DNA from: Negaprion brevirostris
Taxonomy: Eukaryota
Reading direction: 5' to 3'
Length of the DNA: 64,000 nt
NCBI GenBank assembly: GCA_030324005.1
Contig: JARDVH010000124.1
Coordinates: 50,895,029 to 50,959,028, forward strand
Shown: positions 3,772-43,105 of the stretch, piece by piece
Layout: every line of letters begins with the position of its first letter
Numbering within the stretch: position 1 is the first letter of the stretch
The notes under the pieces: model-generated
The model's database searches: none
What the model was told of the DNA's origin: nothing
What the model saw: only the letters and a program-made list of their open reading frames with translations
Translations under genes and position numbers: made by a program

Positions 3772-3896
3772 CTGGTCATTCATCACGATCATAGTGCGGC
3801 TTAAAAGATCGTGATAGGTAATGATACCAGTGAACCACTGGGTGGCAGAATCTTGCCTGTATACTCGTACTCTATAGCCGTTCAATGAATAGGGAC
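3772..3896 (-). CDS. JMJD1C: JMJD1C coding exon (equivalent to human exon 5), 125 bp
   Basis: cttacag|GT CCC TAT...GAC CAG|gtaaac; translates (G)PYSLNGYRVRVYRQDSATQWFTGIITYHDLLSRTMIVMNDQ. The phase-1 junction with the previous exon restores Gly. Confidence 0.97.
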
Positions 3897-4134: not shown

Positions 4135-4240
4135 CTTGCATAAAAATCTCCTGAACTTTTTGTTCTTTAACCCAAGCTTTCACTTCTTCATGAAGCAAAG
4201 GGTTGTCCCTGAGAACTGGGCTCAGACTGTCTATGTCGTC
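4135..4240 (-). CDS. JMJD1C: JMJD1C coding exon (equivalent to human exon 4), 106 bp
   Basis: ttttaaaaag|GAC GAC ATA...ATG CAA G|gtatt; translates DDIDSLSPVLRDNPLLHEEVKAWVKEQKVQEIFMQ(G), nearly identical to the vertebrate JMJD1C N-terminal region. Confidence 0.96.
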
Positions 4241-33436: not shown

Positions 33437-33550
33437 CTGGTAGAGCTGGAAGGCACTATCCCCAGGTATAAAATTCAGTTGTTTATCCACAAAGAATTCT
33501 ATTGCAATTAACAAATGAAGCACAGCCTTTCCCACTACAGACTTGAAAGT
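33437..33550 (-). CDS. JMJD1C: JMJD1C coding exon (equivalent to human exon 3), 114 bp, phase 0/0
   Basis: Reverse complement reads ctttgtttag|ACT TTC AAG...CTC TAC CAG|gtagga and translates to TFKSVVGKAVLHLLIAIEFFVDKQLNFIPGDSAFQLYQ. This resembles human TFKPLVERNIPSSVTAVEFLVDKQLDFLTEDSAFQPYQ (recalled) and joins in frame to the 4135-4240 exon. It is absent from the ORF track. Confidence 0.93.
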
Positions 33551-35689
33551 CTAAACAAAGAAAAACAAGGAAATAACTTAGTTGGAGTTTGATTGATTAA
33601 ATGCAGAGCAATTCGAACATCATTTTTGTCAGAGGACCCAAAACTAGTGAAAGAACAAGTCTGCCACTGGAGTAATATAATGCAGATAGCCAACAAATGT
33701 ACAACAGCATCTCAAAATCTGATTACAAGTTGGACCAACATCAAAGCATGCACATAATTATGCATTTGAAATAAATCCAATTCAAATGTCTTTTATTGTA
33801 TTCTACATAAAGTCAAAGCCCACTTCCAAATTATTGATAGATGTGATAAAAATTCAACTTGAAACATTTTTGCTTTGACTGGAATACAGTATCACAATCT
33901 AAACTGTATTCTTAATAAAAGTTGGCAAAATAATTTTACAAATATAATGAAGTAGAAATGATAGTGGGAAACACAGGATAGGCAAACAAAATTCCAGTAA
34001 ATGATGGTGCAATACAACTATAACACTCAGGGAAGAACATGAATCTCTCAAATTACTACCAGACATAAATTATTAATATAAAATGGTACACAGTCCAAAG
34101 CAGCACACAGAAGCAACTGCAACAAAAAACACACAGTGGACTCATCCTAAGTTCACAAAAGAGATCAGCATACAGAAGAGCAATTTTGGTCTAGTGCTTA
34201 GGGGCACTTGTTCCTCACTCTGAATTCTTGACTTGGAAAATGAGGAATAGTAGAGGAAAATGTTTACTTTGAGTGTGGGGGTTTACCTTCAGGATTTTCC
34301 TATTGCACACATTTTACATTGTTATATTTGTTAACGCAAATGAATTTTGCACTTTTTACACAGGCTTAGTGAAACACTCACTACAGTACAGAGGATGTTC
34401 AGTGCATAGACAAGCATGCCGTCTACTTTGAAAGGCCAAGTCACAGAATTTGAACTTAAAAGAAAAACTCCAAGACGTGTTCAAATAATTCTTGAAATTT
34501 TAGCTAAACCAAACATGTGTACTCTAAGACTGAAAATAAAGATTGCTATGATTCTTTTTAACTTGAACAACAAAAACAGGGTTGAAATTTTCTTCCTGGA
34601 GAACTGGAAAATAATCTCCTCCAGACCAATGCTCTACACTTTTAACGTAATAATTTTTGTTGGCACTTCCAACATTCAGACACAACAAAGTTTTTTAGTA
34701 AAATAATCCACAAGACAAATTAAAGTCCTCATTCTACTGGATGCCAAGGTCCTTGATGAAGGTCATACATGCATCTTCAACGCAAGCAGCAATGCAGCCC
34801 CAATGTGAGAAGCTAGACGACTCCAGAAACAGTAAATCACCCAAATGACTTTTTTCCTCTTTCTCTAGATGCAACAATTGCTGCCATTTGCTTGCTAGCC
34901 CATTTGAACTGTCCCCAAAACACAAAAGGGGAAGGGAAAGTGAAAATTTGTAACCTTAAAACAGCAGCAAAATGTACAAACTTGAACATGCACACAATAG
35001 TTGCTCTGTTGCTATCGAGACGGAATTTGCACAGCAATGTAAACGGGGGAGGATTCTGTAGGAACAGGGGGATCAGTATATTACAAAACTGCTTCAGCTA
35101 AGTACTTCATGAAATAAATTGAGACATACAATCCATGATGCATTGAAAGCGACAATAATTTCACCTTTGCGCTGCACAAGTTTTTAAAAAATGCTTGATC
35201 ACAGAAAATGGAACTACTGTTTAAGGTGCTGAAAAAAATGGCATGACAAAATTTAAACCAACAAAGCAGGCAGAGGAAGAGTAGTAATGTTAGCTCCAAT
35301 GCAAGAATAGGGGAATTCTTACATCATCCCAAGAGTTACTTCTTAAGTACTTAACGTGCTGTGGAACTTTCCTCAGAGCAATAACCTAGAATTGGCAGCA
35401 CAACACTTTAGAGCAGTGGAGGTTTTATAAACTGTTCCATTAAATGGTAAGACGTGGGTGTGAAGGCTCAGAGGCATTTTCCAACCACCTTTCCTTCAAT
35501 AAGCAGCTCAATGACAGTTTCTCGAAGCAGATAGCACCTCTTACAAATTGAATTCTAACAGTTTTACTGTCTGCTGCACTGAAGAGCTTTGATGTGTAGC
35601 AAAAATTGTATGTATTGTTTTTACTTTTTTTGATCAGCTTCAAATTTATTTTAAAAATCGAGTTCCTCTCACACTGGAAACGTGGCCAC

Positions 35690-36010
35690 CACTAAAGGTG
35701 CTCTCTCTCTCTGCCTGAAATGTTACTGGTCCACATTCCACAGATCGTAATTTCATTTTAATTGCTATGCCTGCAACAGTCTCCAAAGCTTTCTCCACAT
35801 TTTAAAAATTTTAATTAATTCCTTCAAAAGTTTACCTGTCATACCTCCACACTACTTTGTCTTTAATAATCTTCAGTGGAATCTTATTTCTCCCTAAGGG
35901 TCCCAAAATCTTTTACTTCTCCTGACTTCCTTTCTCCAGTCTCCTCTGCCACCTCACTGTCAATGACTTCATCGACTGGTTAAATGTTCACTCACGATCA
36001 ATCCGTAAAT
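35690..36010 (+). mobile_element. Possible old L2 fragment
   Basis: Pyrimidine-rich, with ctccaaagctttctccac and cttctcctgacttcctttctccag resembling the L2 linker. Confidence 0.35.
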
Positions 36011-37025
36011 TAAACCCTCAATGCCTGCTACAATCCCTCTATCTCATGCTATTAGTGCCTCTTGTCCTGAATCTACTTATATATCCATTCTCACTCTTTC
36101 CCAGGCTGTCAACATTTTTCAGTTTATTGAAAATCTCCATGCACTTCCTGCAATAGTCAGAGTTTCTAAATGTCTCCCATCACAATGTCAAACCATCCCA
36201 GTTGTCATGACACATGGAAGTCACTGATTCAGCATGAATAAAGTCACAATCTATCAAAAATATTGTGTTTGCTGGTCATTTGTCACACTGTTCTACATGT
36301 GAGAAAATTTGGTAGACTAAGAAATTCAATCATTCATTGCTGGGAACTTCGCACCTGCCCCTCAAACTTACAGGTACTTCCCTTTATTTCCAAGTACAGT
36401 TCCCTTCAAACAACTGAACTAAACAAGATGTTTCCAATCAGACTTGGCTTTAAAGGTAAACACAAATTCTGTTGCAGCAGGTCAACACATTGCACAGAAC
36501 ATCCAAACAAACAGGAGTACAAACTGCCTGATTAATCATTTTTCAGATGTTTAAATCAATTACTTCAACAAAAAAAAGCAAACTGTGATTCTGTACACTT
36601 GATCTAAAAGTTTCCAAAAGTCATGCATATTAAAATACTCCAATGCAACTGCCCTCCAAGAACATGAAAGTTACCACCAAGCAAGATGATTGAAGATTTG
36701 TTCATGTATTTATTATGGCCAACAAGTTATACGTCAGTATTTACGTCTCTAATTATATCAGTCTTAAAATAGAATGTTAATTATGGAGACTTATGCCAGG
36801 GATTCCCAAACTAGGATCCACAGAGTCTTCAGGATGTCCACCACCAGCACATTTGCAAAATTTGAAAAATGCTGCAGAGTTGCTCATCCACAACCAACCA
36901 GAGGCACATTTCTGCAGAAGGTGGCCTCAGAGCGGCTCTCGGGGAGGGGAACAACCCTTGGAGCTGGCGGGGGAATGAGTAAACGCCCACAAGCGTGAAA
37001 TAGACTGCCCGCATGTGAGCCCAAG

Positions 37026-37140
37026 AGAGAGGGTGGGGTGGGGGTGGGGGGCCAAGTGCGCGCACGAGGGAGGGCGAGGGGGCCGAGCGCACGAGGGAGG
37101 GGACAGGGTGTGTGTGGGAGGGATGGGGTGAGGGAGAAAG
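37026..37140 (+). other. G-rich tract with G-quadruplex potential, including two copies of GCGCACGAGGGAGGG
   Basis: GGGTGGGGTGGGGGTGGGGGG plus further G3 runs, directly visible. Confidence 0.75.
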
Positions 37141-39307
37141 AGGTGCCTGTATCCTACATGAGTAAGAACTTTCCAGCATCACTCCTCCCATTAAAATTGG
37201 CAACAGGTAAGACTCCAATATTTTTAGTTAAAGGAGGTTGTAGATCTTGAAATGGGTATTACTTCCAGGGGTTAATATTAAGAATGCACGGGAGGGTGGC
37301 ATCATCAGGAATTAATGAGAGGAGGCCATGTAGCTGGTGAATGTCCTTCTGACTGTGTGCCTCTTCCTAATTCCTAATACATGTACAAGATATAGCCATA
37401 AAGACTTGGCTACACTTGCGCACATTTCTGTGTTCGCACTTATTTTGCAGCAAAAAAAAAAGGGACATCCAAATTGTGAGAATGTTTGGGGTTCCCTGAT
37501 GCACTTGGGCAGTGTTCGCTGCTCAAAAAATTTAGGAAACCCTGACTTTTGTAAATACATGCAAAAAGCATAAGTATTTCAAAATTAAATGAAAACATCA
37601 GCCTACTTTTAAAAAGTATTGAAAAAGGAGATGCAAGTCCCAGTCATTTCATTGCAAAAGTTCAGCTAGATGAAGGGATTAAGGTCTCTTACTATTCTAT
37701 ACAAACTGAAGGAGAGCTCTTTTGTATTACTTCTACGCTTTGGTGATCTGTCCTGCAGTATGAAAACTTCCACAACCACCATACATTGCTTTTCACATTG
37801 GATCCAATATTCTCAGTACGGCCTGCTAAAAATCAATCTGTGCTTTGGGTGCTCTTAAGACATTTCAATTTTTTTTAAAAAATCGAAACCATCCTTTTGC
37901 AACAAGCCCTTAAACTGGCAGATGTAGAACGGAGTCAACCCACAGCCAGAATAAATGTTGACAGCTGCCAACAGGGACTGTGTTTAAAATGCACTATTAC
38001 CTTCAAGTTCCAGACAAAACCACTTCCTCAGGTATGTTCAGTTTCGCCAAACAGCACCACCCATTTACTGTATAATATTCCCACAAATGCCAAGCAAACC
38101 AGCAGTAAGCGCAGTGTGAATTAATTTCTGTTTGAAATAGTGATGGGAGCACAAATATGTATTTTTAATGTTCAATTGAGTTAATAACTGAATAATCATT
38201 TATCAATTTTTCAAATATTTATAATTTGCATGTTAGTGCCTTGACTGGAAATATGGAAGCAGGTTACAGTAGCCCGTTCTATAAACAGAACATGCAATTT
38301 CATGTTGATCACAATGTTCTTGCAACAGGAACATCTATAAATTAATTCAAAGAACTTTTACAACAAATATAATTTCTCAATCAGTAAATTATATTGCGCA
38401 TGAACTCTCAGGGGGATGATAATTCTGAGTCGTCAAACACCCAAAGCAACTGAATCTGTCCGACACAACGTCTGCGCCCCTTCCTTCTGATTTTACCACT
38501 GCAGTCATTAGTTTTAGAATTTATATTCATTTCAGTGCTCAATCTTTAAAAGTGCCTGCACAGCAGAACGTGGAAACCACAGGGAGAAAAAACCTAATTT
38601 GAAAATGATTTTCTCAGCATTAAACAAAGATCATAAATTATTCAGTCCTCTATGTTACACCTCTCCCTCTCTTTCCTGCTAAGGGTAGAGTTGCATTCAG
38701 ATATGCTAAAGCATTCTATTTTCAATTCCAAAATTTTCTGCCATAATCCCATGATCTCCCTACGATCAACCCTCTTTACATACAAAGAAATACCAAGAGT
38801 GCCATCTGTACCTAGTTTATACCTAAAAGTTATCCAAACTCTTGAGCCTCAACAGTTTTTTTTTCATTTCATCCGTTTCCTTTCAATGTCGTCTCCATCT
38901 TTTCAGAGGTGTTTGTGCTCAGATGATCTCAAATAACTTTGTCCAAATGGCAATTCTTGACATGACCCTCAAATATCACACTAGCAGGTTATATGACTCT
39001 CAACGGGACTGCAGCTGAAGTCCAAGTATTTTAACTTTGCAGCTTCACGTAATGATTAGGGACTAAAATTCTGGGAGGTGTTCGGGTATAGGCGCTAAAA
39101 TGAACTGTAGTACTGGCTGAGTTTAGCCCAGGTTAGAGTTGCAGGAGAATTACAATTGATTATATTAAGTACAATTTACAATAGTTTGGAAGAACAAAAA
39201 TTGTTATATCTTTACAAGAACCTCCCAACTTACGAGACTTATTCCTTGAAATTGTACAGAAACAGGATGACTTTAATAGTGGACATTAACTGGTCCCAGA
39301 GATGTGT

Positions 39308-39450
39308 AAAAAAAACTGTAGATGCTAGAAATGTGAAGGGAAAAAAACAGAAAACGATGAAACAACCCAGCAAGTCAGACTGTATCCATGGAGGAATCAC
39401 GCAAGTTAACATTGCAAGTGAAATGATCTGAACAGAAGCACCTGAAACTT
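39308..39450. mobile_element. Degenerate PLE terminal-repeat fragment
   Basis: aaactgtagatgctagaaatgtga...cccagcaagtcagac...gttaac resembles 28140-28280 and 40290-40385. Confidence 0.5.
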
Positions 39451-40289
39451 GTTTACTTTCTCTATTTGTGAAATAACATTACACATCTTGGCCAATTGTG
39501 ATGATATGCAGTTTGCCACTTATAAATAAATGTAATCTTTTAATACCTTTGAAGTTAAATGAACAGAAGTTCATCTTAAGCAATGGGGCACTGAATTAGG
39601 AAATCTTGCACAAGTTCAACTTATAATAATTCTTTTAATATCAGAATACCACAATCATCATTTAATTATTGATCATGTAAAATCACTATATGACTTGAAA
39701 TTAATAAACAAGATTGTTCATGAAACTGAAAGACGACAGACACACTTCTACATCTAATACACCAGTGAAATAACACAGTTGTCACTTGAACAGCTGTACA
39801 TTTGCAACTGTTTGCCAAATGACTGAGTTTTTCAGGTTCATTACTGCATCTGTATGTATTCCTATGTTGATTTTATAGCACCAGTACCGTAGCACACAAA
39901 CAGAGACCCACAACTATCACTATTATCTGGCAGTGTGCCATGAGCTCTCATTGCATCTGTTGAAGGGCCAGTTAAGATAATGAAAAACACAGGTGCCTGT
40001 CATCAACCACAGTTCTTGCAAGACATGAGCAGTTAGGTCCTCAACATTGCTAAAGGCACAGTGTTCGACTTTTAAGCTGGTAATTTGCTGGTTTACAATG
40101 ATAGAAGTGCCATGTGCAATGCTCCATGATACAAAGTCTGCAAACAGAAACTGACGATGCGCTATATACAGCATTTTAAAATATACTAGATTTTTAAAAG
40201 ATCAAGAGGAATAAAGACAATTTAATTCGATATGAAACAAACGGAATGCCATTCAGCTCCATCAAAATGGAAAGCTGCTTACATTTATA

Positions 40290-40385
40290 AAAACAGACAA
40301 TGCTGGAAAAACTCAGCAGGTCCGGCAGCTATAGTGGAGAGAGAAACAGTTAACGTCTGGCTTCTTTACAACTTCTTCAGAGTCC
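40290..40385 (-). mobile_element. PLE terminal-repeat fragment
   Basis: aaacagacaatgctggaaaaactcagcaggtccggcagc...gagagagaaacagttaacgt is the reverse complement of the family at 28215-28280. Confidence 0.7.
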
Positions 40386-41599
40386 ATATTTCACTCAATG
40401 TAAAATTGGCAACTCCATATTGCACATTGCTTATGAAAAGTCATCATGTGTTACACCAAAATCAGATGCAGTGACACAACTATCTTCTACTGTATTAAAT
40501 CCTTCACAGCTGTCCATATCATCAGATATCCATACTTCAGCGGGATACACATTTTAAAAAAAGCTGTGATTGCCTGAGCTGTGTATCAAATCTACAATAA
40601 ATATTTGACTAGGCAGTGCAATAAAACGTACAGAAAAGCTGCTTGAATTCAAACATAATTTAACTGTCCAGTTTCTGCGCAACTCAACAGATATGTCCAA
40701 TGTCAGCTTGCCAAATGCTAAAATGATATACAGTCTAGTTGTACAAATGCGCAACAAGATTAAACATAAGTGACCATCGATAAAACAATGAAGAAAATGT
40801 TCCAACCTATAAATACATGAAGCTAACACAGCTGCTAATAGTTGAACAACTGGGACGAGTTTGAACCTGTCTACACACAGTTCTATTAATAAACAAGATC
40901 TTGATGGATCTCTACCCAGAATGCATCGCTGCCACAATGTTAAGCCAGCCAGACACCCAGATTTGCAAGACTTCTGCATTCTTTATAGCCTACACGATAC
41001 TTTGACTACGGAAATGTCTGCAACAACTGTATCCTGTTTTGGGCTTGGTGCAGTAACACATTCCATTCACATGAAAACAGGAAAACAGATGAGCTTCTAC
41101 TGAAAAACCTTCATATTTAAAATCAAATGCTTCAAGCAAGTAGTAACACTGATTTAATTTTAAAGTTATAAACCAGAAAGTTAAATGAATATTGCAACTT
41201 TAAGTATTTATTAATTATAAATATCAACCACAGACCTTTGTAAAGTAAAACTTACGAAACGCCTATTCCCTAAATAACTTTCTAATCACACACTTACCAA
41301 AGCGTATCCTATAAAGAGGACTGTAAATTAAGAATATCTTTGTTATGCAATAAATGTTAATCCTCATGTCTGGTGTGTTATATATTGGTAGAAATTATAA
41401 AATATATCTCCGCTGCAAGCCTCGTCACAGCAATCAATTCTCATTATGCAGACATGTTGGAATGTCAAAGTCCAGCTGCCACCCATTCAGTCAACACATT
41501 CAAGAAAAAGCGGTTACACTTCAATCAGTTATACTAGTGTAGAAAATTCGATTTCCACCTTTTGTTATTTCCTGCTACACGTGTTAAAAATCTCCGCAT

Positions 41600-42600
41600 T
41601 TATTTTATTTCGTATTTCAGTAAGAATTCTGTATCCCAACAGGATTAATTCTGTTATATGTACAGGGCTATCGACGCGGTGTTAAAATAAATCAACCTCA
41701 CCAAGCCGATTTTTGTTCAACAAAAAAAAAGGCACGTTACCCACCTAATGGTCCATTCCAACCCAAACAAGCAGGAACAAAATCCAAAAAGCTATCAGAC
41801 TGCCGGGATTTGCTCTCGGATCTGCAGCTAATGTGCAGTCGAGCTGTCCACGATTACACAGGCCGATATTCAGGCTGCGGATGATAGACTTCCGATCAGA
41901 ACATGCTCACTCGCCGAGTGAGTGAAGCATTTCTGATCAAAGAAAAACGAAAACAAGGCGGCGCGTTACACTCCAGCCCATGCGGTAATTAACGGTCCCA
42001 ACCTGTGAAAACTTCATTAAAAAAATAAGAATCGGATCTTCGAAAAGCTACCGCGAGTGCTTCAGTTGTCTCTTTCTCTCCTTCAAGGCTGAATGCGGAG
42101 AGTGCAGAGGCGGATCACTGATCTCCCTTTGTCATCATTACGTACTGTTAACGAATGAGAAACCCCACAACTGCTGCACTCACTGTAAAGATCTAGGTCA
42201 CGAACATTACACTGCGATTGGCTCTCTAACCAGCTACCCAAAACAGACAGGCGAAAACAAGCAACATTAAATTAATCAACTCGTTTGATGCCATGAGGAC
42301 TTAAGAAGTGAAAGAAATTTTCAAAGTCGACTGCACATGGGCTGATGGCTCGGACGAAGCGGAAAAGGGCGGTGCTTCCCGAACTAAACCCAAGTCACAG
42401 GTGGCAACAGTCACTTACAGCATGAGTCATCTGATTACTCATTGTCGCACTAAGACTTTCAGACAACAGACAAAATCCAGATTAATATTAACGTTCACAA
42501 TTTTCAATTGGCTTCGTTGAAATGTTTCACTTTCCACAACTTTCTGGAGAGACAATTAGCATGTTTTCCCTTTTTAGCGATTAAAAAAAAATCATGCCAC
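41600..42600 (-). promoter_or_regulatory. CpG-rich intronic island; candidate internal JMJD1C promoter or alternative 5' exon
   Basis: Visibly high CpG density against a CpG-depleted background with no recognisable repeat. CCAAT on minus at 42217-42221 and 42507-42511, GC box 42367-42372, AP-1 TGAGTCA 42423-42429, donor-like TAG|GTGGGT at 41745/41744. Confidence 0.65.
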
Positions 42601-43105
42601 GTGGAAATGACTGGCCAGGCCAACATTTATTAACCATGCCTGGCCAGGCCAACATTTATTGACCATGCCTGGCCAGGCCAACTTTTATTGACCATCCCTG
42701 ATTGGCCCCCACAAGGAGGTAATGAGCTGCTTCTTGATTTGCTGCAAACCCTTGTGACTCAAGTACACCCACAGTGCTGTTGGAGAGTTAATTCCAGGAT
42801 TTTGACCCAGTGACAATGAAGAATATATTTCCAAATAACAGTGATGTGCACTGGGTAAAGGGGAAAGGCAGACTTCCAGGTGGTGGTGTTCCCATGCATC
42901 TGCTGTCCATGTCCTTCTAGATGGTAGCAGTCAAGGGTTTGAAAGATGCTGTCCAAGGAACCTTAAGTGCATTCTGTAGATGGTACACATGACTGCCACT
43001 GTGCACAGTAGTAGAGGGAGTGAATATTAATGGATGGGATGCCAAACAAGCGAGCTGCTTTGGCCTGGGCAGTCTTGAATGTCGAGTGTTGTTGGAGCTG
43101 CCCGA
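42595..43105 (-). mobile_element. 3' end of a common shark LINE-like repeat; another short piece on + at about 49705-49795
   Basis: Minus strand tcactgggtcaaaatcctggaattaactctccaacagcactgtgggtgtac...aagaagcagctc...aataaa; the tail matches 49720-49790. Confidence 0.7.
42611..42697. repeat. 29-bp tandem repeat, 3 copies
   Basis: CTGGCCAGGCCAACATTTATTRACCATGC at 42611, 42640 and 42669. Confidence 0.95.

What the first reader, a model, noticed from the sequence alone, without database searches (positions are those of the whole stretch)
41600..42600. CpG-rich island about 8 kb upstream of JMJD1C exon 3: candidate ancient internal promoter for a short isoform
Seen: sharp CpG enrichment with no repeat signature, two minus-strand CCAAT boxes (42217-42221, 42507-42511), a GC box (42367-42372), AP-1 (42423-42429) and a donor-like TAG|GTGGGT at 41745/41744, all oriented with JMJD1C. 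Knowledge (recalled): mammalian JMJD1C has N-terminally shorter isoforms from alternative 5' exons that initiate at the Met of 'IFMQG'. Seen: exon 3 here has no ATG, and the first in-frame ATG downstream is that same Met (4139-4141). Inference: the long/short isoform switch may predate the shark-bony vertebrate split.
Basis: partly seen in the sequence, partly recalled or inferred. Interest (0 to 1): 0.7.

Follow-up and report, generated by a model that had tools for sequence, protein, structure and literature searches.

The report
Shark JMJD1C internal short-isoform promoter
A CpG-rich patch inside the shark JMJD1C gene holds an exon that is spliced to exon 3 in sequence assemblies from related sharks, so it is likely a second promoter for a shortened protein like the one known in mice, and this two-promoter layout likely predates the split of sharks from bony vertebrates.

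Summary
The kilobase at 41501-42500 has CpG O/E 0.98 at 43% GC. That is the highest of 174 scored kilobases (median 0.26), and it is single-copy. It lies in JMJD1C intron 2, 8.2 kb above exon 3.

Contigs from 4 of 7 presumed-RNA runs of related sharks join 41745 to 33550 at GT-AG ends, exactly as predicted: two with long anchors, two with 29-letter anchors. A DNA-like run does not. The exon is at least 421 nt and ends in an in-frame stop, so the predicted protein starts at Met180 (4141). It lacks the DUF7030 and PWWP domains and keeps the Tudor domain.

Mouse has the same layout: an alternative promoter, short exon 1 joined to exon 3, and a protein 180 aa shorter. Database models starting at this Met exist in 13 of 19 cartilaginous-fish genera tallied.

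Not shown: the start site, methylation, the protein itself, or sequence homology with the mammalian exon. Verdict: a real alternative first exon of a known kind, probably ancestral to jawed vertebrates. Modest interest.

The parts
41401..42500 (.). CpG-rich, GC-poor island (O/E about 0.95-0.98, GC 43%) in JMJD1C intron 2
41745..42165 (-). Alternative 5' exon, minimal extent 421 nt; the 5' end is not mapped and other contigs reach 42343
   Evidence: X2 contig of 5587 nt begins at 42165 and runs through 41745 into exon 3; X1, X9, X10 contigs reach 42340-42343
41739..41744 (-). Splice donor GTGGGT, used
   Evidence: joint 33550/41745 with ends CT..AC on +, i.e. GT-AG on -
33551..41744 (-). Intron of 8194 nt skipped in the short transcript
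   Evidence: all 30 bins covered and no such joint in DNA-like run X15
33437..33550 (-). JMJD1C exon 3 (114 nt, no ATG); coding in the long form, predicted untranslated leader in the short form
   Evidence: mouse exon 3 primer matches with 3 mismatches
4135..4240 (-). JMJD1C exon 4; out-of-frame ATG at 4191 (3-codon uORF); predicted short-form start ATG at 4141-4139 (Met180 of the long form, weak context: T at -3, C at +4)
3772..3896 (-). JMJD1C exon 5, start of the Tudor_KDM3B domain
42093..42214 (-). Best-conserved core: 5 listed substitutions in 122 nt against 19 in the next 99 nt in the distant relative X9
   Evidence: Fisher P=0.0004, boundary chosen after looking; 25 of 35 X9 differences were listed; also present in a Scyliorhinus torazame ab initio model
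42215..42223 (-). NF-Y-type CCAAT site; the listed changes in X9 keep the consensus
   Evidence: shuffle P=0.14
42367..42372 (+). GC box, close to where three contigs end
   Evidence: shuffle P=0.12
42423..42429 (.). AP-1 site
   Evidence: shuffle P=0.17
42507..42511 (-). Bare CCAAT, not a full NF-Y consensus
   Evidence: chance level
42555..42562 (-). Octamer-like site; an E-box CACGTG lies at 42598-42603
   Evidence: octamer shuffle P=0.18
41745..41756 (-). Last uORF (Met-Asp-His-stop); its stop codon is the last three bases of the exon and in frame with exon 3. One of 7 upstream ATGs in the 421-nt exon
   Evidence: the ATG count equals the shuffle mean of 6.7
41894..41938 (-). Predicted hairpin in the leader, covering two upstream ATGs (41930, 41904)
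   Evidence: conservation not shown

Best explanation
The island holds a 5' exon of JMJD1C that is spliced to exon 3, and it is likely the internal promoter of a short isoform predicted to start at Met180, likely inherited from the ancestor of jawed vertebrates. Mechanism: a likely unmethylated, TATA-less CpG promoter starts transcription somewhere around 42165-42370. The donor at 41744 joins exon 3. Because the exon ends in an in-frame stop and exon 3 has no ATG, the exon, exon 3 and most of exon 4 form a leader of at least 634 nt with 8 upstream ATGs. Ribosomes would reach Met180 by leaky scanning or re-initiation. The predicted product lacks the first 179 residues (DUF7030 and PWWP_KDM3B) and begins at the Tudor_KDM3B domain, so promoter choice would switch that N-terminal module on or off. 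Shown: composition, position, splice in relatives, reading frames, domain boundaries. Inferred: promoter activity, lack of methylation, translation, common descent with the mammalian promoter.
For: Joint 33550/41745 with GT-AG ends in 4 of 7 presumed-RNA runs laid: X2 (anchor 115 letters, contig 5587 nt), X7 (anchor 71, contig 7602 nt), X3 and X4 (anchor 29); four organisms, four studies. These runs leave most intron bins empty, while DNA-like X15 covers 30 of 30 bins with no such joint. The X2 contig begins inside the island at its first letter. Highest CpG O/E of 174 kilobases. Exon 1 and its own island lie about 206 kb upstream and exon 2 about 67 kb upstream. Pfam on P0001: DUF7030 8-68, PWWP from 78; exon 4 matches the end of the PWWP profile and exon 5 matches Tudor from profile position 6. 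Mouse: alternative promoters, 2530 versus 2350 aa, short exon 1 to exon 3 (PMC5029890); mouse exon 3, 4 and 5 primers map to the same shark exons with 3, 1 and 1 mismatches. Models starting MQGPY occur in 13 of 19 cartilaginous and 8 of 10 bony genera tallied. Met follows the exon 4 motif in 187 of 187 proteins carrying that motif; the paddlefish KDM3B-like paralogue has Arg there.
Against: No run is on record as RNA, contigs cannot show a start or a strand, and none of the presumed-RNA runs is from this species. X3 and X4 anchors are under the tool's 31-letter bar. A CAG at 42344-42342 lies where three contigs stop, so an upstream exon is not excluded. GC is only 43%. Each motif is at chance level. 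The one mouse short-exon primer has no ungapped match within 7 mismatches in the island, and its best gapped match is equalled or beaten by 33 of 203 background blocks. Six of 19 cartilaginous genera, Amia and Latimeria show no MQGPY-start model (Latimeria has a Met in exon 3 and a model starting there). Such models are automatic and can come from any non-coding 5' exon or from an incomplete annotation; several accessions share one protein. A char protein has Leu at this position. In mouse testis the short protein was barely detected.
Confidence: 0.82

Rival explanations
1. The promoter is real, but sharks and mammals gained internal promoters in intron 2 independently. Any non-coding exon spliced to the ATG-free exon 3 would give the same Met180 protein.
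For: No alignable sequence between shark and mammal was shown; the mouse primer match is at chance level. Several RefSeq accessions per shark species share the same short protein, which suggests more than one 5' exon. No short model among 6 Amia proteins.
Against: Same intron, same splice target and 179 versus 180 aa truncation. Short models occur in chimaera, sharks, rays, paddlefish, reedfish, lungfish, caecilian, turtles, birds, monotremes and lagomorphs.
Confidence: 0.22
2. The transcript is made but gives little protein. The ATG-rich, structured leader and weak start context make it mainly a regulatory or translationally gated RNA, or shift initiation to a later Met.
For: Eight upstream ATGs in 634 nt; T at -3 and C at +4; a leader hairpin of -25.8 kcal/mol; short protein barely detected in mouse testis (PMC5029890); database models that start at the later MIVMNDQ.
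Against: The ATG count equals chance (7 against 6.7), so no enrichment is shown. In mouse testis the short transcript was itself the minority form. The Met sits at a domain boundary and is widely kept.
Confidence: 0.2
3. It is an internal cassette ('poison') exon spliced between exon 2 and exon 3, whose in-frame stop triggers nonsense-mediated decay.
For: The exon ends in an in-frame TAG. A CAG with a weak pyrimidine stretch lies at 42344-42342. X1, X9 and X10 contigs stop aligning at 42340-42343, two of them with 21 and 26 unaligned letters that the output did not print.
Against: A CpG island is typical of a start (established knowledge). The X2 and X7 contigs run unbroken from this exon through exon 3 in records of 5.6 and 7.6 kb, which fits a stable major transcript (inference). 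The mouse counterpart is described as a promoter. The loose tails are shorter than the roughly 30 letters expected at an assembly branch (inference; the exon 2 end was outside the stretch laid).
Confidence: 0.07
4. A young repeat insertion or assembly artefact whose CpGs have not yet decayed.
For: Repeats begin directly beside it, at 42607 and about 42761.
Against: Single match in G000; single-copy depth; the same sequence in at least seven other organisms at about 87-99% identity and in a catshark gene model; no Rfam family at its gathering score.
Confidence: 0.01

Closest known systems
Mouse Jmjd1c short-form promoter and first exon (NM_001242396; human 'variant 2'/TRIP8, whose exon is called 1B from recall)
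   Same: Lies upstream of exon 3 and is separate from the long-form promoter; its first exon joins exon 3; the protein is shorter at the N-terminus by 180 aa in mouse and by 179 aa here.
   Different: No sequence homology shown. Here the island is GC-poor. The OCT4 link reported for mouse (citing Katoh 2007) is untested; the shark has one octamer-like site at chance level. No expression data by tissue.
Non-methylated islands (NMIs) at promoters of cold-blooded vertebrates (Long et al. 2013, PMC3583005)
   Same: High CpG O/E with GC close to the background, as described for zebrafish.
   Different: Methylation was not measured here; it is inferred from composition.
RefSeq and Ensembl short JMJD1C protein models of sharks, rays and chimaera
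   Same: They start at the same Met.
   Different: They are automatic predictions; only the proteins were seen, not their 5' exons, so it was not checked that they use this island.
Alternative promoters shared by cartilaginous fish and mammals, such as Runx in elephant shark (PMC3974841, search listing only)
   Same: Dual-promoter gene structure kept across jawed vertebrates.
   Different: Here the alternative exon is non-coding and removes whole domains; it does not swap a short N-terminal peptide (the Runx arrangement is recalled).

Membership tests
Classical CpG island (Gardiner-Garden criteria, recalled) | CpG O/E above 0.6 over more than 200 bp | tested here: met
   0.94-0.98 over 1 kb
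Classical CpG island (Gardiner-Garden criteria, recalled) | GC above 50% | tested here: not met
   43% overall; one 200-bp window reaches 52%. Not filed as a classical island.
Non-methylated island promoter | High CpG O/E against the genome background, GC not required | tested here: met
   0.98 against median 0.26; reduced TpG/CpA excess; criterion from PMC3583005 section 7
Non-methylated island promoter | Unmethylated DNA and H3K4me3 | not testable with these tools
   no methylome or chromatin data available
Alternative first exon | Spliced to a downstream exon of the host gene at canonical sites | tested here: met
   joint 41745/33550, GT-AG, in 4 of 7 presumed-RNA runs and not in the DNA-like run
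Alternative first exon | Carries the capped 5' end, with no exon upstream | tested here: inconclusive
   contigs begin or stop at 42165, 42231 and 42340-42343 but cannot show a start; a possible acceptor lies at 42342
Orthologue of the mammalian JMJD1C short-form promoter | Same intron and same splice target (exon 3) | tested here: met
Orthologue of the mammalian JMJD1C short-form promoter | Same predicted protein start and truncation | tested here: met
   Met180, 179 aa removed, against 180 aa in mouse; prediction only
Orthologue of the mammalian JMJD1C short-form promoter | Sequence homology of promoter or exon | tested here: inconclusive
   only one 20-nt mouse primer could be tested, with a chance-level result; no bony-vertebrate genome was available to align
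Orthologue of the mammalian JMJD1C short-form promoter | Continuous presence in intermediate lineages | tested here: inconclusive
   short protein models in 8 of 10 bony and 13 of 19 cartilaginous genera tallied; their 5' exons were not seen

The most novel reading that the evidence does not exclude
JMJD1C has carried, since before sharks and bony vertebrates split, a two-level switch: an internal promoter that removes exactly the DUF7030-PWWP module, and a conserved leader (upstream ORFs, a hairpin, an invariant core) that gates translation of the short form. The shark core at 42093-42214 would then point to the functional elements of the human short-form promoter and leader.
Probability: 0.25. 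Interest if true: 0.55.

Novelty: new member of a known kind. Interest (0 to 1): 0.38.

Why it matters
JMJD1C/KDM3C is studied in leukaemia, spermatogenesis and neurodevelopment, and papers disagree on whether it has demethylase activity (PMC11208531). Its two isoforms are rarely told apart. If the short-form promoter is as old as jawed vertebrates, the isoform is under long-term selection and not mammalian noise. The truncation also falls on a domain boundary, which makes a clear test: what does the N-terminal DUF7030-PWWP module add? The result is an extension of known mammalian biology, and the short protein is already in automatic shark annotations, so a specialist would find it useful more than surprising.

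Tried and rejected
- No RNA holder is on record in the run search; the RNA label of the runs laid is a guess.
- X1, X9 and X10 show no joint. X1 and X9 have no cover on the exon 3 bin at all, and the tool filters human-like records, so this counts neither way.
- The alternative donor at 41741 was not seen in any listed joint.
- Mouse short-exon primer against the island: no significant match. The best gapped alignment overlaps the AP-1 site at 42430 but is at chance level.
- Coding reading of the conserved core: an ATG-less open frame (42271-42086, minus strand) shows mostly synonymous changes in X9 (6 of 9 listed). The best-of-six-frames P is 0.06-0.09, X9 and X10 have a stop at 42230, the catshark model differs by a frameshift and three or four amino acids, and a search of 1.84 billion representatives found 0 hits. 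Rejected as unproven.
- Rfam: one weak hit outside the island, below its gathering score.
- Fold of the 599-nt exon: z = -1.9, unremarkable.
- PDB search with the N-terminal 187 aa: 0 hits.
- Earlier scan findings: none.
- Literature: 'JMJD1C + exon 1B' gave 0 papers. 'jmjd1c + shark' gave 27 papers, 25 listed, none about shark JMJD1C by title or abstract start. Searches listed nothing on the evolution of this promoter. Katoh 2007, Wolf 2007 and Castermans 2007 were seen only as references, and subscription journals are not searched.

Full report
Setting. The window is from a 2.69-Gb genome. A large JMJD1C exon fetched from just downstream is closest to shark proteins, best Mustelus asterias at 96%. 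JMJD1C runs on the minus strand. With the window numbering continued into 200 kb of fetched upstream DNA, exon 1 starts at 248504, exon 2 is 109980-109816, exon 3 is 33550-33437, exon 4 is 4240-4135 and exon 5 starts at 3896. The finding lies in the 76-kb intron 2, 8.2 kb above exon 3.

The observation. The kilobase 41501-42500 has 45 CpG, O/E 0.98 and 43% GC. It is first among 174 kilobases with fewer than 50 N, of about 263 in the 264 kb; the median is 0.26 and the exon 1 island reaches 0.67 in the same tiling. TpG and CpA excess is reduced, as expected if the region escapes germline methylation (inference). It fails the classical 50% GC rule but fits the GC-poor pattern described for zebrafish non-methylated islands (PMC3583005, section 7 read). 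It is single-copy by search and by depth. Repeats start just outside, at 42607 and about 42761.

The decisive test. The run search listed 20 runs, 14 guessed to be RNA and none on record as RNA. I laid 8 of them: 7 presumed RNA and 1 unlabelled. The joint 33550/41745, skipping 8194 nt with GT-AG ends, appears in X2, X3, X4 and X7, from four organisms and four studies. X2 and X7 have long anchors (115 and 71 letters) in contigs of 5587 and 7602 nt. X3 and X4 have 29-letter anchors, below the tool's bar of 31. X15 has no differences in its 8 listed pieces, covers all 30 bins and lacks the joint; it behaves as DNA of this or a very close species, so it is a control and not independent support. 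X1, X9 and X10 show no joint; X1 and X9 have no cover on exon 3. All splice evidence is therefore from relatives that differ by about 1-6% in this exon. The donor and acceptor are intact in this genome.

Extent of the exon. The X2 contig begins at 42165, giving at least 421 nt. Other contigs cover 42072-42231 (X3), 42112-42343 (X1), 42062-42343 (X9) and 42062-42340 (X10). Contigs cannot show a start or a strand. The spread fits a broad start region between about 42165 and 42370 (inference), but a CAG at 42344-42342 leaves an upstream exon possible. In the distant relative X9 (about 88% identical), 42093-42214 has 5 listed substitutions in 122 nt against 19 in the next 99 nt (25 of its 35 differences were listed). 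The listed X9 changes at the NF-Y site keep the consensus. An ab initio Scyliorhinus torazame model translates the same core, which shows the sequence in a named catshark; I do not take it as coding.

Predicted product. The exon ends in a stop codon in frame with exon 3, and exon 3 has no ATG. The leader is at least 634 nt with 8 upstream ATGs, 7 in the new exon and 1 in exon 4 (its exon 5 boundary was off by one base and was corrected). The first ATG that opens the long frame is 4141-4139, Met180 of the long form. Pfam places DUF7030 at 8-68 and PWWP_KDM3B from residue 78 to the end of exon 4, and Tudor_KDM3B begins with exon 5. The short form therefore loses the first two domains whole. The ATG count equals chance, so the leader is neither enriched nor depleted. 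A hairpin at 41894-41938 ranks sixth of 8991 minus-strand windows of 56 nt; four of the five above it are the neighbouring tandem repeat.

Comparison. PMC5029890 (passages and primer table read) describes two mouse transcripts from alternative promoters, 2530 and 2350 aa. It lists primers in short exon 1 and in exon 3, reports the short form highest at birth and predominant in spermatogonia, and barely detected the short protein. The mouse exon 3, 4 and 5 primers map to the same shark exons, so the layout is the same. PMC6999878 (passages and supplement search) shows exon numbering shifted by one in variant 2, in agreement; two of its supplements are pictures that could not be read, and figures of the exon maps were not visible. 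PMC11208531, PMC4233403 and PMC13540958 were read as passages only. From recall only, Katoh and Katoh 2007 call the human exon '1B' and list POU5F1, AP-1 and bHLH sites upstream of it. The shark has an octamer-like site, an AP-1 site and an E-box at 42423-42603; the first two are at chance level and the E-box was not shuffle-tested.

Distribution. Among the proteins fetched, models starting MQGPY occur in 13 of 19 cartilaginous genera, including the chimaera Callorhinchus, and in 8 of 10 bony genera tallied. The tally used genus names as printed, some of them cut short. It left out birds, turtles, most mammals, one ray record with a cut name and most rabbit rows, and large clusters were listed only in part. 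Birds and turtles also have such models. These are automatic models; they show the short protein is widely predicted, not that one promoter makes it. Met follows the exon 4 motif in 187 of 187 proteins with that motif; a char has Leu, the KDM3B-like paralogue Arg and a copepod homologue Ile.

Verdict. The island is a real, spliced alternative 5' exon of shark JMJD1C and most likely its internal promoter (0.82). Common descent with the mammalian short-form promoter is likely, about 0.7, on position, splice target, start codon and distribution, without sequence homology. It is a new member of a known kind. I found no paper on it in the searches listed, and the short protein is already in automatic annotations. 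Interest 0.38.

Noticed in passing
window 41894-41938 (-): Imperfect palindrome predicted to fold as a hairpin (-25.8 kcal/mol, z -5.7, window chosen by eye) in the leader, covering two upstream ATGs; one listed change in X3 falls in the stem.
   Followed up: partly
window 42086-42271 (-): ATG-less open frame of 62 codons across the conserved core; substitutions in X9 lean synonymous (best-of-six P 0.06-0.09); translated in a catshark ab initio model; no homologues found.
   Followed up: yes
window 40800-41139 and 41416-41507: Intronic stretches just below the donor are held by contigs of the distant relative X10 at about 88-93% identity: possible conserved non-coding elements or unspliced RNA.
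   Followed up: no
L015-L016, about 203.5-205 kb in continued window numbering (intron 1): A third CpG-raised patch (O/E about 0.6, GC 40%); could be another 5' exon.
   Followed up: no
window 42607-42700: Three tandem copies of a 29-nt unit, each containing the palindrome CCTGGCCAGG or a near variant, directly upstream of the island.
   Followed up: partly
window 40287-40349 and 42761-42960: High-copy repeats, abundant in the contigs of related sharks.
   Followed up: no
P0200, P0204 (Latimeria): Coelacanth exon 3 has an in-frame Met, and its short models start there or at the start of exon 3, so its short form would keep part of the PWWP domain.
   Followed up: no
P0294 (Eptatretus burgeri): A hagfish model begins MQSGPY at the equivalent place; it may be an incomplete model or a hint that this start is older than jawed vertebrates.
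   Followed up: no
P0011, P0015, P0122, P0142, P0178, P0186: Models in five shark and ray genera are 38 residues shorter before Met180, which equals the length of exon 3: a likely exon-skipping form that would break the PWWP domain.
   Followed up: no
P0001, P0009 (Rhincodon); P0136, P0138, P0140, P0147 (P0147 named Chiloscyllium plagiosum, the others on a contig of the same length): JMJD1C is annotated as two separate genes (N-terminal piece and remainder) in these assemblies, probably an annotation or assembly split.
   Followed up: no
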